Below are positions 39,201 through 48,200 of a stretch of DNA of 64,000 bases, in pieces (position 1 is the stretch's first letter; each line of letters starts with the position of its first letter). The position numbers are program-made. This DNA comes from Escherichia coli O127:H6 str. E2348/69 (GTDB lineage: Bacteria; Pseudomonadota; Gammaproteobacteria; Enterobacterales; Enterobacteriaceae): the NCBI RefSeq assembly GCF_000026545.1, contig NC_011601.1; one strand, given 5' to 3'.

Positions 39201-42200
39201 AGACACATAAGGCCTCGCAATGGCTTGCAAGGTTTTACATATTTTGAGGTGGTGGAACGTGTGAACGCAGAGATGGCGCGGTAATTTGTTGATTTAAAAT
39301 GTCGTTCCTGGAGTTTCTAAGTCGTGGGCTACAGGTTCGAATCCTGCAGGGCGAGCCATTTCCTCGCCATTTATTTGTTCCCTTTTACAAATTACACCAT
39401 CACTTTGTTGTCGCGGTTTTGCTAAATAATTGGAACACTTCAGACGAATAAAATGAAAACAGAAATTCTGCTAAACAATTCATCTTGCCAGGATTTTGAT
39501 TAGGAAAGTGAAAAGGAAAGGAGCAAGCTAAGTTGCTCCCTTTAATCATTAATACTCAAGGATACTCTGCGCGGCGGGCAAATAGCGCAGAGAGAAATAG
39601 AGCGTGTCTTTACCGCAAGAGGAACGTTTCGCTAACAGCGAGGCGATCTCTGCATCCGGTTTCGGTTTCGCTGTAAAGGTTTTGCCTTTGCGGGCGACAA
39701 ACAGTTCATAAACAATGCCGCTGGCAGGGGCGGAACTTTGGCAATCGGCGCTGGCCTGTAGATAACGTTCACGCTGTTCAGCGGTCAGTTTATCCCCGCC
39801 GCTGCCATCCTGTACCCAGACATTAACGCCGGTTGTTTTAACTTGTTCCAGCAGTTGGCGATAGCCATCGGGCGACATGTTTCCGGCGAAAAAACTACTG
39901 ATATAAACCGGTTTTGCTGAAACATCGCTAATCAACCGCTGCGCGTTGTTTAACCATGTCAGCAAAGGTTGACGGGCGGCTTCGCTGCGCCAGTTCAGGT
40001 CGTCAATTTCCGCGCTGATGTACCAGCCATCCGGCGTTACGCCAGGCGCGGCGCTCCATAATCTGGCTTGCTGGAGATCGGCAGCCAGCAGGCGATTAAG
40101 ATAGCTTTCCAGCGCCGCGGATGACTGTTTCTGGTGCATAAAAAATTCCGGATCGGCATTCAGCCCGACAATCAGCTTCAGGCCAGCCTGTTGCGCAGCT
40201 GCGGCACGCTTAAACAATAACGCGCGCTGTTCTGGCTGGGTGAATGCATCGCCGTAACGGGTCCATTGCAAAACCAGGGTATCGAAGCCTTGCAAACGTA
40301 ACTGACTCATCAGCCCCTGCCACTGGGTATCGGTAACCTGACTATCACGGTTTTGTGGTTGCCAGATAATACCTTTCATCGCAAAGGAAAAAGGGCTGAC
40401 CAAAAGCAGTGTCAGCAATACGAAAATGAACTTACGCATTTACCAGTGCACTCCAATGGTGAGAAACGCGTTGTTGCGCTCTCCGTTACGTTGATTAATC
40501 GCCTTAAAGGTATGTTGATATTCGACGCCGAGACTGACTTTGTGCGGCCAGGCGTCGTAGTGCGTCTCGCCGGTCCAGATATTCCAGCGGACCCCGACAC
40601 CGCCAAGCTGCGCGCCCTGAGTGCCTTTATCACGATAACCGTTGTCCTGAACGTGAGCGTAAGGCTCAATAGTCTGTCCGTTCGCCACCTTCTGATGCCA
40701 GCTTACGCGATAATCTGCCGTCCACGCCTGAATATCCTGGCGGACATATTGCGCCGCATCGAGGTACAGGTTTTGGGCAAACCAGCCTGAACCGTTCGGG
40801 TGCCATTCGTCGCTGTATTTGCCGCCATTAAAGAATGAGGCGCTGGCGCGCAGCATGGTATCGGATGCGCCATTTTGCCCGTTCAGCGGCAACTGCTGTT
40901 CGACGGCGAGGAAAAAGATCTGATCGCGCAGCGGCTTCCAGCGCAGACCGGTGCCGGACATCGGATTTTTCACCGGCATCATCACCCCGTTTTCTCCGGT
41001 ATCGGCAAAGACGCGGCTATAAACTGAGAGCAGGTCGCCTTCCAGCAGCATATTGCGTCCGATGCGGTACTCGGCTTCCAGTTGCCTGTAGCTACGATAG
41101 CTTTTCCCTGGCGCTGCGCCGCCGACATTATTGTTAGCGGTACTCATTGCGCCGGAACGCAAGCCGATAGAAGAATCGAAACTGAACGTCCAGCGGCGAC
41201 CGACCTCCTCATGCAGACGGCGGAAATTGAAGCGTTGCTGATTTTGCTCTGGGGTCAGTGGGGTTATCAGCGCCTGATTATCAATGTCATCAATCACCAG
41301 CCGGGCGTAGTGCTGCGTCGCAGGCATGTCATCCAGACGCTGGTTCACGTAGGCCAGTTGTCGGATAAGTGCCGGATCGTCCGGTAGCCCTTTATGCGCC
41401 TGTTCGAGCATTTCCCGCGACTGTGCGATATCACCGCTATCCCACAAGGCGTAACCGAGCGCTGCCTGGGTGTTGCTATTATTCGGTTCCAGTTCCAGCG
41501 CGGCGCGCAAATCACTCACCGCCGCCGGGACATTATGACGTTGGCGATAAATTGTCGCCCGCGCAACGTAAGCGTTGGCAGAAGGCGCAATATTGATTGA
41601 GCGCGTGAGATCGTTCAGTGCGAGTTCCGGCTGACCAGGAATGTAACGTTGCGCATGCAGCCACCAGTAGAGGGCATTGTTTCCCAGCCCACGTTGTTCT
41701 GCCTGCTGAAGCCAGCGATCGCGAGCCGCACCATTTCCTGCCGCCTGGGCGGTATTGGCAGCAGCAAGCAGATCCTCATTGCTCATGTCGTGAAGACTGA
41801 TTTTCTGCCAGGCCGCCAGTGCGGTGGCGTAGTCCTCAACCTGATACGCCTGATAGGCTACCGCACGATGTTGCCAGGCGTCCGGTTGTCGTTGTTCGGC
41901 CTGAAGCCATGCATACAACGCCACACCGGGTAGCGTGTCCCGATAACACTTTGCCAGACGGTTCCAGGCGGCGGCATCGTAGGAAGGCGACATATCGCCC
42001 AGCAAGCGAACTATTGCCGGGCAATTATCTGCAATACCCGGCAACTGACTTTGCCACTGACGTTGCTCCGCCAGCGGTAAGGGTTTCGATAAAATCGCCA
42101 CCTTCGCCGGAGTTGCCAGGTAAGGATGACTTTCCAGCAGAGACGCCAGTCGCGCCATTAAAGTCTGGCTGACACGCGCATCGCCCTGGAAAGGATAGCG

Positions 42201-45200: not shown

Positions 45201-48200
45201 TGTTCAGACAGTCGGCTTTGCTGGTGGGGCCAGGACGCGCGCAGACTACCTTATGCACGTTCGGGAAGCGAGCGCACACTTCGTCAACATCACGCTGAGT
45301 ATCGGGGTCGTTGGGGTAGGTGCCAACAAAGATATGATAGTTTTCGTAGTCGAGCGTGGTCGCCGCCAGCTCGGCCATATTGCCGATGACGCCCGTTTCA
45401 TTCCACGCCGGAACCATAATCGCTAACGGTTTTTCATCTGGTTTATACAGTTCGCGGTAACTCATTCGCGGGTAGCGGCGATAAACACTCAACTTGCGTT
45501 TAATGCGGCGTACCCAGTAGACGACATCAATAAAAAAATCGTCCAGCCCGCTGATGAACATAATGACCGCTAACGTTATCGCGATTACTTTTAAGCCGTA
45601 GAGCCAGGTAGCAAAAACATCAAGAAGCCAGTCCACACAAAAACCTTACATTAACGCTGGTTATGTTTAGGGTGGCGTATATTAAGGTTTTTTATGAATT
45701 GTGACAGCTTTTTATCATTAATAGGTATTACTATTGCGGCATGTTATTTTTACACTGGTTATAAAAGTTGCCGTTTGCTGAAGGATTAAGCGGGTAATAT
45801 GATAACAAACCTTGTCCCCCGTGCATCTGACGTTACTGCAACAGTGCCTTTATGCGCGACAACAATCGATTTCACTATCGCCAGACCAATGCCGCTACCT
45901 TCGCCTTTTCGCTGGCGGGAAGGATCAACGCGGTAGAAACGGTCAAACAATCGCGGTAAGTGTTCGGGCGCAATGGGCGTACCGGGGTTTTCGACGGTAA
46001 CTTGCACCAGGTGATCGACCGTCTGGCAGCGCACAACAATTGTCTCTCCGGTTGGCGTATAACGCAGGGCATTAGAAAGCAGGTTGCTTAACGCCCGACG
46101 CAGCATCAGCGGATCGCCCGCAACCTGACACTCGTCGCCAACAAACCGCAGCTCCACGCCGCGATCTTCTGCTAACGCCTCGAAAAAATCGAACACTTTG
46201 CCGACTTCATCCGCCAGGTTGAGCATTTTCTTTTCGGGGATTAGCTGGTTGTTATCGGCCTGAGCGAGAAACAGCATATCGCTGACCATTTTCGCCATTC
46301 GCGTCAGTTCTTCGAGATTAGAGTAGTGCACATCTTCCAGCTCTTTCTGGCTGCGCGACTGGCTGAGGGCGATTTCCGTTTGCGTAATGAGATTAGTAAT
46401 AGGTGTGCGAATTTCGTGGGCGATATCCGCTGAGAAATTGGACTGGCGGGTAAAGACATCCTCAATACGCTCGATCATATGGTTGAACGACAGTACCAGC
46501 TGTTCCAGCTCAATCGGCACGGTCTGCGGGTCAAGGCGAACGTCGAGATCTTTCGAGGTAATGTTCTGGATTTGACGGCTGACGCTGCGGATCGGCGCGT
46601 GACCTTTATGTACCGCCAACAGCACGATAAAGACGATCAGGATGCTGATTACCGATGCGGTCATAATAAGTTTATTCATCAAATCATTGATGTAATGAAG
46701 ATGAAAATCGATCGAAAGCGCAATGTAGAGCGTATAAATCGGTTTGCCGTCCACCAGTGGGCCAACCGGCAAGCTAATCATCCGCCAGTTGCTGTGTTCC
46801 ATATGCCCGTGACCGTGGCCCGGCATCATAATCGTCGGGCCGGAAAGGAGATACACCTCGCCGCCCCGCGTGTCTTTATCGGGTATGGCATCACGTGCAA
46901 ACTCGCGGATATCAGGCGCACCGGGGGAGTGATACACCGTTTTGCCGTGGCTATCTGCCAGGGAAATCAACACGTTGGAATAACCACTGACGATATCTTC
47001 CAGCGTCATTAAGCGTCGGGCTTGCGTTTCGTCAGGGTGATTAAGTACCCGTTCAAGGGTGGCGCTAATCTCTTTTAAATCATTAATATCCTGCTCGGCA
47101 AAATGCACTTTTACTGAGTGGATCATGATCCATGCAAAGGCGAAAAACGCCGCGATGGTGGCCAGGCTGATAAAAAAGGTCAGGCGTGTTGCCAGCGAAA
47201 ACGGGCGCTGAAATGGCTTACTGACCATCCGGCACCTCTAGCATGTAACCCACGCCGCGCACGGTCTGAATCAACTTTGGCTCAAAGTCGTTGTCGATTT
47301 TGCCGCGCAGCCGCTTCACCGCCACATCAATGGCGTTGGTATCGCTGTCAAAATTCATGTCCCATACCTGCGAGGCGATAAGCGAGCGGGGCAGCACTTC
47401 GCCCTGATGGCGGAGGAAAAACTCCAGCAGAGTAAATTCTTTACTGGTCAGAGTGATGCGCGTGCCGCTGCGGGTGACTTTGCGGCTGACGAGATCGACC
47501 ATCAGATCGGCAACCTGAAACTGACTTTCGATAATCACCGCCGCCCCGCGCCGCAGTAGAGTGCGCACCCGCGCCAGCAGTTCAGCAAAAGCGAACGGCT
47601 TCACCAGATAGTCATCCGCCCCCAACTCCAGCCCCTTGACGCGATGTTCAATGGTGCCAAGCGCGGTAAGCAACAGAATCGGCATCCCCTTATTGGCGGA
47701 ACGCAACATGCGCACGATATCCCAGCCGTTCACGTCCGGCAGCATAATATCGAGGATTATCAGATCATAATCACCGGTCATCGCCAGATGGTAGCCATTC
47801 AGCCCGTTGTCGGCCAAATCGACCACAAAACCGGCTTCGGTTAACCCTTTGGTCAAGTATTCTCCGGTTTTCTTTTCATCTTCGACAATCAACAGTTTCA
47901 TATTTCCTCCGCATGTTGCCCGGGCAATTCTAGAGTAGCGGGATCAGATGGCAATCGCTTATTGGCAAAATGACAATTTTGTCATTTTCCTGTCACCGGA
48001 AAATCAGAGCCTGGCGAGTAAAGTTGGCAGCATAAAATCACCAGAAATTATGAGCCTATGTCTCCTTGTAAACTTCTGCCATTTTGTGTGGCCCTTGCGC
48101 TAACCGGTTGTTCACTGGCACCGGATTATCAGCGTCCGGCAATGCCCGTGCCGCAGCAGTTCTCACTCAGCCAGAACGGCCTGGTTAACGCAGCAGATAA

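What the first reader, a model, noticed from the sequence alone, without database searches (positions are those of the whole stretch)
39549..45636. Complete ybcH-nfrA-nfrB module
The NfrB glycosyltransferase, the NfrA outer-membrane protein and YbcH are all intact and overlapping, so this strain is predicted to display the phage N4 receptor determinant. I recall this being linked to a secreted exopolysaccharide.
Basis: established knowledge. Interest (0 to 1): 0.15.

Follow-up and report, generated by a model that had tools for sequence, protein, structure and literature searches.

The report
Known N4-receptor sugar operon, one odd mutation
This is the well-known E. coli nfrB-nfrA-ybcH operon, which makes and exports the surface sugar polymer used as a receptor by phage N4; it is complete in this strain (EPEC E2348/69) and ordinary except for one strain-private amino-acid change in the site where NfrB binds its activating signal, c-di-GMP.

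Summary
Window 39549-45636 (minus strand) carries full-length nfrB (745 aa), nfrA (990 aa) and ybcH (296 aa). The window is 100% identical to E. coli O127:H6 E2348/69, and the proteins are 99.5/98.7/96.3% identical to K-12. nfrB and nfrA overlap by 14 nt; nfrA and ybcH only abut.

This is the published c-di-GMP-activated system that makes the N4 glycan receptor (NGR). The glycosyltransferase catalytic residues are unchanged. dgcJ, wecB and pdeL are intact elsewhere in the genome.

NfrB codon 518 is CAG (Gln) instead of CTG (Leu).
- Leu518 aligns with Leu39 of V. cholerae MshE, a c-di-GMP contact residue.
- Gln518 occurs in 3 of 5,426 complete E. coli genomes, all of them E2348/69.
- It is the only difference from a sibling isolate over 10,973 nt.
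- It costs 7.7 bits on the c-di-GMP-motif model.
- However, a published Leu518 substitution in K-12 did not change N4 plating, so loss of function is not established.

Side result: a confident model shows YbcH as a glycoside-hydrolase-like TIM barrel with invariant Glu at the ends of β4 and β7.

Verdict: already known, low interest.

The parts
43399..45636 (-). nfrB: inner-membrane GT2 glycosyltransferase with a C-terminal MshEN c-di-GMP receptor domain (745 aa, GTG start)
   Evidence: ORF. Pfam Glyco_trans_2_3, Glyco_tranf_2_3 and MshEN. NCBIfam NF008411 equivalog scores 1328 bits against a cut-off of 1170. It is 741/745 identical to K-12 NfrB.
44491..45429 (-). GT2 catalytic domain of NfrB (residues about 70-382), with DxD (D169), TED (D267) and QxxRW (W330) motifs
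   Evidence: Pfam stretches 70-332 and 165-382. D169, D267 and W330 are identical to K-12 and invariant in a 10-strain panel. Mutating these residues abolishes N4 plating (PMC8669469).
44017..44172 (-). Tandem 24-residue c-di-GMP-binding motifs of the MshEN domain (NfrB residues 489-540)
   Evidence: NCBIfam NF053729 c-di-GMP_motif covers residues 489-540. It scores 58.7 bits here and 66.4 bits in K-12 and the sibling isolate, against a cut-off of 38. Alignment to V. cholerae MshE 5htl: L490/G491 = L10/G11 and R517/L518/G519 = R38/L39/G40.
44083..44085 (-). NfrB codon 518: CAG (Gln) here, CTG (Leu) elsewhere; the SNP is at window position 44084
   Evidence: The Gln allele is in 3 of 5,426 complete genomes, all E2348/69; the Leu allele is in 5,042. 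It is the only difference from sibling isolate L014 over 10,973 nt.
43399..43412 (-). 14-nt overlap between the nfrB 3' end and the nfrA 5' end (translational coupling)
   Evidence: Sequence read. The same 14-nt overlap is reported for K-12 (PMC8669469).
40440..43412 (-). nfrA: outer-membrane exporter (990 aa) with a signal peptide, TPR repeats and a C-terminal beta-barrel
   Evidence: Pfam TPR_19, TPR_14, TPR_8 and NfrA_C. NCBIfam NF007302 equivalog scores 1887 bits against a cut-off of 1223. It is 977/990 identical to K-12.
40482..40988 (-). NfrA_C domain (predicted outer-membrane beta-barrel pore portion)
   Evidence: Pfam PF13283 covers residues 816-984 of the 997-aa mechanical ORF, which is residues 809-977 of the 990-aa protein; E = 1.4e-67.
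39549..40439 (-). ybcH: DUF4434 protein (296 aa) with an N-terminal signal-like helix, predicted to be a glycoside-hydrolase-like (beta/alpha)8 barrel
39517..39542 (-). Terminator-like hairpin (10-bp stem plus T-rich tail) 6 nt after the ybcH stop: the likely operon end
   Evidence: sequence read.
45637..45785 (-). 149-nt cusS-nfrB intergenic region holding the operon's promoter region
   Evidence: Sequence read. It has 3 SNPs relative to K-12. No sigma-70 consensus match was found in it. Published nfrB::lacZ data show FliA/FlhDC-dependent, post-exponential expression that is higher at 37 C. The promoter itself was not mapped here.

Best explanation
Window 39549-45636 is the orthologous nfrB-nfrA-ybcH operon of E. 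coli O127:H6 E2348/69. It is a synthase-dependent exopolysaccharide system. The published model runs as follows. NfrB, an inner-membrane GT2 synthase, polymerises a ManNAc-containing glycan (NGR) from UDP-ManNAc made by WecB. NfrB is switched on when c-di-GMP, supplied locally by DgcJ, binds its C-terminal MshEN domain. NfrA, a TPR scaffold plus outer-membrane beta-barrel, exports the polymer. From fold and conserved residues I infer that YbcH is a periplasmic glycoside-hydrolase-like accessory enzyme that trims or processes the polymer. [quoted passage not shown] All sequence-level requirements are present in this strain, so NGR display under inducing conditions (37 C, post-exponential growth, DgcJ active, PdeL off) is the most likely state. 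The strain's NfrB carries a recent private L518Q change at a c-di-GMP contact residue, which may raise the c-di-GMP threshold for activation. Shown here: gene identity, intactness, motif conservation, presence of the partner genes, and the rarity and recency of L518Q. Taken from the literature: the enzymology, c-di-GMP activation and receptor role. Inferred only: the YbcH function and the effect of L518Q.
Against: NfrB Leu518 is equivalent to MshE Leu39, which stacks on a guanine of c-di-GMP. Mutating any one of the conserved hydrophobic residues in MshE lowers affinity more than 10-fold. Here the residue is Gln. That residue is absent from 5,042 other genomes and appears in 1 of 121 aligned segments from diverse homologues. 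It lowers the c-di-GMP-motif score by 7.7 bits. No experiment on NGR or N4 in E2348/69 was found in the paper library. The YbcH hydrolase role rests on a predicted structure only; the published view is 'putative scaffold'. The chemical structure of NGR itself is still unknown in the literature.
Confidence: 0.7

Rival explanations
1. The locus is structurally complete but functionally attenuated. L518Q weakens c-di-GMP binding to NfrB enough that E2348/69 makes little or no NGR at physiological c-di-GMP levels. The prototype EPEC strain would then adsorb N4 and other NGR-dependent phages poorly compared with sibling isolates that keep Leu518. The mutation would have been fixed by phage selection or by the cost of NGR production.
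For: L518 aligns with MshE Leu39. In MshE, single changes of the conserved hydrophobic residues lower affinity more than 10-fold. Gln518 is found only in the three E2348/69 assemblies among 5,426 genomes. It is the only difference from sibling L014 over 10,973 nt; a random SNP would hit one of about 12 key motif codons non-synonymously roughly 0.25% of the time (my estimate, made post hoc). Position 518 is aliphatic (L/I/V) in 110 of 121 aligned segments from homologues no more than 50% identical to each other. The change costs 7.7 bits on NF053729. Natural inactivation of this pathway is common: an nfrA internal stop in APEC O78, a stop at nfrB codon 11 in GN02323, many truncated or fused NfrB forms, and a published note on IS elements and stop codons in nfrB/dgcJ.
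Against: Sellner et al. mutated Leu518 in K-12 NfrB and report that only G491L and G519S affected N4 killing. Junkermeier and Hengge found that single Leu changes (L490A) give only a moderate drop in plating. The domain still passes the c-di-GMP-motif cut-off, 58.7 bits against 38. Branch-specific N:S for the operon (7:10) is not clearly elevated. In MshE, a triple Leu mutant that could not bind c-di-GMP was constitutively active, so the direction of any effect is uncertain.
Confidence: 0.22
2. Classical protein-receptor view: NfrA and NfrB matter because the proteins themselves are the N4 receptor (the tail sheath protein gp65 binding NfrA). On this view an intact nfrA is sufficient for receptor display, and the glycosyltransferase and c-di-GMP functions are irrelevant.
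For: Older literature, summarised, reports NfrA as the outer-membrane receptor bound by gp65. NfrA here is full length with a signal peptide and the NfrA_C barrel.
Against: GT active-site mutants (D169A, D267A, W330A) and the MshEN mutant G491L abolish N4 plating without changing NfrB levels. wecB alone among the ECA genes is required, and dgcJ is required. NfrA may still act as a secondary receptor, so this is an incomplete explanation rather than a true alternative.
Confidence: 0.05

Closest known systems
E. coli K-12 NfrB-NfrA-YbcH (b0569-b0567), the NGR exopolysaccharide system (Junkermeier & Hengge 2021; Sellner et al. 2021)
   Same: Gene order, strand, protein lengths (745/990/296 aa) and the 14-nt nfrB/nfrA overlap are the same. 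cusS lies upstream. Protein identities are 99.5/98.7/96.3%. All mutationally defined GT residues are identical, as are most c-di-GMP residues.
   Different: NfrB carries L518Q (private to E2348/69) and R625H (private to its clone), plus V415I and E577D, which are common in phylogroup B2. NfrA has 13 substitutions and YbcH has 11. envY, which lies between ybcH and ompT in K-12, is absent here and replaced by about 174 nt. There are 3 SNPs in the 149-nt upstream region.
PgaABCD poly-GlcNAc system of E. coli
   Different: In Pga, c-di-GMP is sensed at the PgaC/PgaD interface rather than by an MshEN domain (established knowledge). The polymer is GlcNAc rather than the proposed ManNAc-based glycan. 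PgaB also carries a deacetylase domain that YbcH lacks. There is no detectable sequence similarity.
Vibrio cholerae MshE N-terminal domain (MshEN, PDB 5HTL)
   Same: Both have the tandem 24-residue RLGxx(L)(V/I)xxG(I/F)(L/V)xxxxLxxxLxxQ motifs. NfrB residues 488-540 align to MshE residues 8-62. NfrB binds c-di-GMP with a micromolar Kd.
   Different: In NfrB the domain is fused to a glycosyltransferase rather than an ATPase. Motif I reads R-P-L-G, has no equivalent of Gln32, and is followed by a 4-residue spacer. In this strain the Leu39 equivalent is Gln.
BT_0435 (PDB 4h41), a structural-genomics protein labelled 'putative alpha-L-fucosidase', and clan GH-A glycoside hydrolases
   Different: Sequence identity is only 15%. 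No activity is known for either protein, and no substrate is assigned to YbcH.

Membership tests
NfrB (c-di-GMP-activated glycosyltransferase, NCBIfam NF008411) | Full-length match above the curated equivalog cut-off | tested here: met
   1328.3 bits against a cut-off of 1170, covering residues 7-728. 741/745 identical to K-12 NfrB.
NfrB (c-di-GMP-activated glycosyltransferase, NCBIfam NF008411) | Processive GT2 active-site signatures DxD, TED and QxxRW (D169, D267, W330) | tested here: met
   H168-D169-A170-E171-D172, T265-E266-D267 and Q326-K-S-R-W330 are all present and identical to K-12. They are invariant in a 10-strain panel.
NfrB (c-di-GMP-activated glycosyltransferase, NCBIfam NF008411) | Two intact 24-residue MshEN c-di-GMP motifs with the conserved (R)LG Leu and Gly | tested here: inconclusive
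   The domain model NF053729 passes, 58.7 bits against a cut-off of 38. L490, G491, G519 and L537 are kept. The motif-II Leu (L518, equivalent to MshE L39) is Gln, which costs 7.7 bits relative to K-12 and the sibling isolate. The functional consequence is unknown.
NfrB (c-di-GMP-activated glycosyltransferase, NCBIfam NF008411) | Binds c-di-GMP and is activated by it | not testable with these tools
   This needs DRaCALA or MST on the Q518 protein. Kd is about 1 uM for K-12 NfrB(414-745).
NfrA (phage receptor / EPS outer-membrane exporter, NCBIfam NF007302) | Full-length equivalog match, with N-terminal signal sequence, TPR repeats and the NfrA_C barrel | tested here: met
   1887.3 bits against a cut-off of 1223 over residues 1-990. 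Pfam TPR_19, TPR_14 and NfrA_C with E = 1.4e-67. The N-terminus MKENNLNRVIGWSGLLLTSLLSTSALA is identical to K-12.
YbcH (DUF4434, NCBIfam NF007404) | Full-length equivalog match | tested here: met
   513.8 bits against a cut-off of 344 over residues 1-296. Pfam PF14488, E = 9.5e-68.
nfrBA-ybcH operon (NGR system) as described for K-12 | Gene order nfrB-nfrA-ybcH on one strand, with a 14-nt nfrB/nfrA overlap | tested here: met
   The overlap is at 43399-43412. ybcH starts directly after the nfrA stop. A terminator-like hairpin follows ybcH.
nfrBA-ybcH operon (NGR system) as described for K-12 | Partner genes needed for NGR (dgcJ, wecB) are present and intact in the same genome | tested here: met
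   dgcJ is 496 aa, 494/496 identical to K-12, with GGDEF kept. wecB is 376 aa. The antagonist pdeL is also intact. All of these lie outside the window, in record NZ_LT827011.1.
nfrBA-ybcH operon (NGR system) as described for K-12 | Cells display NGR and adsorb phage N4 in an nfrB-, wecB- and dgcJ-dependent way | not testable with these tools
   No paper in the library holds both E2348 and phage N4 or NfrA.
Synthase-dependent exopolysaccharide systems (Pga, Bcs, Pel, Alg type) | Inner-membrane synthase with a c-di-GMP receptor, an outer-membrane TPR/beta-barrel porin, and a periplasmic polymer-processing enzyme | tested here: met
   [not shown]
Clan GH-A-like glycoside hydrolases (for YbcH) | (beta/alpha)8 barrel with conserved catalytic Glu at the C-terminal ends of strands beta4 and beta7 | tested here: inconclusive
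   [not shown]

The most novel reading that the evidence does not exclude
The prototype EPEC strain E2348/69 acquired, after splitting from its nearest sibling isolates, a single mutation (NfrB L518Q) in the c-di-GMP pocket of the NGR synthase. This mutation changes (most likely lowers) NGR display. If so, the world's reference EPEC strain would be atypical of its own clone in phage susceptibility and surface glycan, and this would be a natural regulatory-site escape allele fixed by phage pressure or by the cost of NGR. Separately, YbcH would be the missing periplasmic glycosidase of the NGR pathway rather than a scaffold.
Probability: 0.25. Interest if true: 0.4.

Novelty: already known. Interest (0 to 1): 0.2.

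Why it matters
The operon itself adds nothing new: it is the textbook N4 receptor locus, and its role as a c-di-GMP-controlled exopolysaccharide machine was published in 2021. Two small points could be useful.

- **E2348/69 as a reference strain.** It is the reference EPEC strain. A private change at a ligand-contact residue of NfrB means that results on NGR, on c-di-GMP output, or on susceptibility to NGR-dependent phages (N4, Vequintavirinae, phi92-like) obtained with this strain may not represent its clone or EPEC in general. An isogenic Q518L revertant is an easy control.
- **YbcH.** The confident GH-like model, with invariant Glu on beta4 and beta7, gives a testable function for the one uncharacterised component of the system. 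It could also give a tool (an NGR-degrading enzyme) for determining the still-unknown NGR structure.

Tried and rejected
- **Relaxed selection on the E2348 branch.** Private differences relative to RM14723 and NGF1 are 7 non-synonymous to 10 synonymous for the operon, against 5:20 and 7:23 on the other two branches. The numbers are too small and I draw no conclusion.
- **O-antigen shielding as a block to N4.** Rejected. N4 grows on O16-restored K-12 and on UTI89 (O18:K1).
- **Sequencing error as the source of L518Q.** Rejected. The allele is present in three independent complete assemblies, in the original CAS08017.1 protein, and in an ENA contig.
- **L518Q as a B2-lineage allele.** Rejected. 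Five other B2-type strains, including UTI89, and a sibling isolate with identical flanks all have Leu.
- **RNA families and repeats in the region.** Only the argU tRNA and two chance-level short repeats were found.
- **Sigma-70 promoter scan.** No match in the cusS-nfrB intergenic region. I did not find a convincing FliA consensus by eye and make no claim about one.
- **Word-indexed protein search with NfrB.** It returned only E. coli variants. The exhaustive representative search was needed to reach distant homologues.
- **Early scripts.** They failed because locus files are multi-record.
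Full report
**What is there.** Between 39549 and 45636 the minus strand carries three consecutive long ORFs. 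A 6.6-kb query around them is 100% identical to three assemblies of E. coli O127:H6 E2348/69. The window corresponds to NZ_LT827011.1 480001-544000. A contiguous copy (one place covering at least 80% of the query) is found in 5,045 of 5,426 complete E. coli genomes. RefSeq annotates the genes as follows:
- ybcH, 39549-40439;
- nfrA, 40440-43412;
- nfrB, 43399-45636.

They are flanked by ompT downstream and cusS upstream. Pfam finds GT2 plus MshEN in NfrB, TPR plus NfrA_C in NfrA, and DUF4434 in YbcH. All three proteins exceed the NCBIfam equivalog cut-offs. Compared with K-12 MG1655, the proteins have identical lengths and no gaps: NfrB 741/745, NfrA 977/990, YbcH 285/296.

The nfrB stop overlaps the nfrA start by 14 nt, exactly as published for K-12. 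The nfrA stop TAA is followed directly by the ybcH ATG, so those two genes abut rather than overlap. A 10-bp-stem terminator-like hairpin lies 6 nt after the ybcH stop. No RNA family and no meaningful repeat lies in the region.

**What it is and how it works.** Two 2021 papers define this operon. Junkermeier and Hengge (PMC8669469) report the following:
- NfrB carries the DxD/TED/QxxRW signatures of processive GT2 enzymes.
- GT mutants D169A, D267A and W330A, and the MshEN mutant G491L, abolish N4 plating.
- YbcH is dispensable.
- Only WecB among the ECA pathway genes is needed.
- DgcJ is the specific cyclase and interacts directly with NfrB.
- Expression is low, post-exponential, higher at 37 C and FliA-dependent.

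Sellner et al. (PMC8669472) name the product NGR (N4 glycan receptor) and propose a ManNAc-based polymer. They show that PdeL protects against N4. They also show that UTI89, a B2 strain with O-antigen and K1 capsule, is N4-sensitive in a wecB-dependent manner. N4 also grows on O16-restored K-12, so an O-antigen is not in itself a block.

In the window's NfrB, all catalytic GT residues are unchanged, as are L490, G491, G519 and L537. The partner genes lie outside the window. I located them in the same chromosome:
- dgcJ is 496 aa, 494/496 identical to K-12, with GGDEF intact;
- wecB is 376 aa;
- pdeL is 362 aa.

At the sequence level, everything known to be needed is therefore present.

**The one thing the ORF-level reading misses.** Of the four NfrB differences from K-12, V415I and E577D are shared with other B2 strains. 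R625H and L518Q are not. Codon 518 is CAG here and CTG in K-12.

A phmmer alignment of K-12 NfrB to V. cholerae MshE (PDB 5htl) places R517-L518-G519 on R38-L39-G40 and L490-G491 on L10-G11. In the MshE structure, Leu39 forms a hydrophobic triangle with Leu25 and Leu29 that stacks on one guanine of c-di-GMP. Mutating any one of the conserved hydrophobic residues lowers affinity more than 10-fold (PMC5013675).

*How rare it is.* I ran megablast with 55-nt queries centred on the SNP, so that the other allele cannot seed a 28-mer. The Gln allele was found in 3 of 5,426 complete genomes, all of them E2348/69, and the Leu allele in 5,042. Among 150 representative homologues no more than 50% identical to each other, the aligned position is Leu in 99, Ile or Val in 11, and Gln in 1 of 121 aligned segments. 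The NCBIfam c-di-GMP-motif model scores 58.7 bits for this protein and 66.4 bits for K-12, against a cut-off of 38.

*How recent it is.* An exact look-up of the E2348/69 NfrA returned four distinct places:
- Two carry CAG: an E2348/69 assembly and an identical ENA contig.
- Draft isolate GCA_902505465.1 carries CTG. It differs from E2348/69 at that one nucleotide only, across 10,973 nt.
- A metagenome contig also carries CTG, plus four other differences from E2348/69 over the shared stretch.

The Leu518 sibling protein exists as WP_052929467.1 on 4 contigs, while the Gln518 protein is on 15. L518Q is therefore a derived change on the E2348/69 branch.

*Why this does not show loss of function.* Sellner et al. 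mutagenised Leu490, Gly491, Leu505, Leu509, Leu518 and Gly519. They state that most substitutions had no effect on N4 infection; only G491L (complete) and G519S (partial) did. The residue they introduced at position 518 is not given in the text or in the held supplements. Junkermeier and Hengge saw only a moderate effect for L490A. In MshE, a triple Leu mutant that could not bind c-di-GMP behaved as constitutively active, so even the direction of an effect is uncertain. I therefore put about 0.7 on a functional system that displays NGR under inducing conditions, and about 0.22 on a meaningfully attenuated allele.

Natural inactivation of this pathway is clearly common:
- APEC O78 has an internal stop in nfrA, and GN02323 has TGG to TAG at nfrB codon 11.
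- Many truncated (670-aa) or fused (1268-aa) NfrB forms exist on hundreds of contigs.
- About 7% of complete genomes lack a contiguous locus.
- Sellner et al. note IS elements and stop codons in nfrB and dgcJ.

**YbcH.** I found no published function beyond 'putative scaffold', and there is no sequence homologue in the PDB. I built a 45-sequence alignment of homologues 43-90% identical to YbcH. The resulting AlphaFold2 model is confident (pLDDT 92.8, pTM 0.90) and shows a (beta/alpha)8 barrel.

The family-invariant acidic residues E144 (motif SAEIDD) and E245 (VYELF) sit at the C-terminal ends of strands beta4 (138-145) and beta7 (241-245). That is the catalytic arrangement of clan GH-A enzymes. 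I infer that YbcH is a periplasmic glycosidase acting on NGR, analogous to BcsZ, PslG, the PelA hydrolase domain and the PgaB C-terminal domain. This fits its being dispensable for N4 plating. It remains an inference from a predicted structure.

**Comparison with known systems and novelty.** This is a member, not a relative, of the K-12 NGR system: every sequence-defined feature is met except the single motif-II Leu. It works like the synthase-dependent Pga, Bcs, Pel and Alg systems. The operon is already known. The private L518Q allele and the GH-like reading of YbcH are minor additions.

**Verdict.** Novelty: already known. Interest: 0.2.

Noticed in passing
window 39375-39548 (between ompT 37938-38891 and ybcH): envY, which lies between ompT and ybcH in K-12, is absent. 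K-12 L002 4119-5091 (including envY) is replaced by about 174 nt of unrelated sequence. The ompT-proximal 575 nt align at about 90% identity. The B2 relatives RM14723, GPEC1186, NGF1 and UTI89 show the same arrangement.
   Followed up: partly
window 35914-38891: Directly after tRNA-Arg (35914-35990; Rfam) lie fragments of an integrase (36006-36607) and of a tail-fibre assembly gene (36614-36983), followed by a SAM methyltransferase (37038-37694) and ompT. This is a roughly 3-kb decayed remnant. In K-12, ompT lies inside the annotated cryptic prophage DLP12. From my memory of the K-12 map (not checked here), this tRNA is argU, the DLP12 attachment site, and the sfm fimbrial genes and fimZ normally lie between folD and this tRNA; no such genes are annotated there in this window.
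   Followed up: partly
[not shown]
   Followed up: yes
window 45786-47228 (cusS): On the E2348/69 branch, cusS carries 7 non-synonymous and 20 synonymous private differences relative to RM14723 and NGF1 in 1.4 kb. The adjacent 6.1-kb nfr operon carries 7 and 10. The jump in divergence suggests a recombination boundary near the nfrB-cusS intergenic region.
   Followed up: no
L007, L008, L010 (O157:H7 PV15-279, APEC O78, fox isolate), upstream of nfrB: In these strains nfrB is preceded not by cusS but by an ISAs1-family transposase and a zincin-like metallopeptidase toxin-domain gene. The protein database also holds 1268-aa NfrB fusions with PAAR-like (PF05488) and other domains, and 670-aa NfrB forms, on hundreds of contigs.
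   Followed up: no
L008:5700-8672 (APEC O78 nfrA) and L009:3476-5713 (GN02323 nfrB): Natural knock-outs of the same pathway occur in other strains. APEC O78 has an internal stop in nfrA. GN02323 has TGG to TAG at nfrB codon 11, which RefSeq re-annotates with a later start.
   Followed up: partly
window 6866-7912: An IS481-family transposase gene lies between ybbP/dinQ and mnmH. From memory, K-12 has an Rhs element at this position; I did not check this.
   Followed up: no
window 40440-43412 (nfrA) and 43399-45636 (nfrB): Several amino-acid changes are private to the E2348/69 clone relative to a 9-strain panel and are shared with the Leu518 sibling: NfrA R119H, A353S and G776R; NfrB R625H; YbcH V215G. 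G776R lies upstream of the NfrA_C match. Its effect is unknown.
   Followed up: partly
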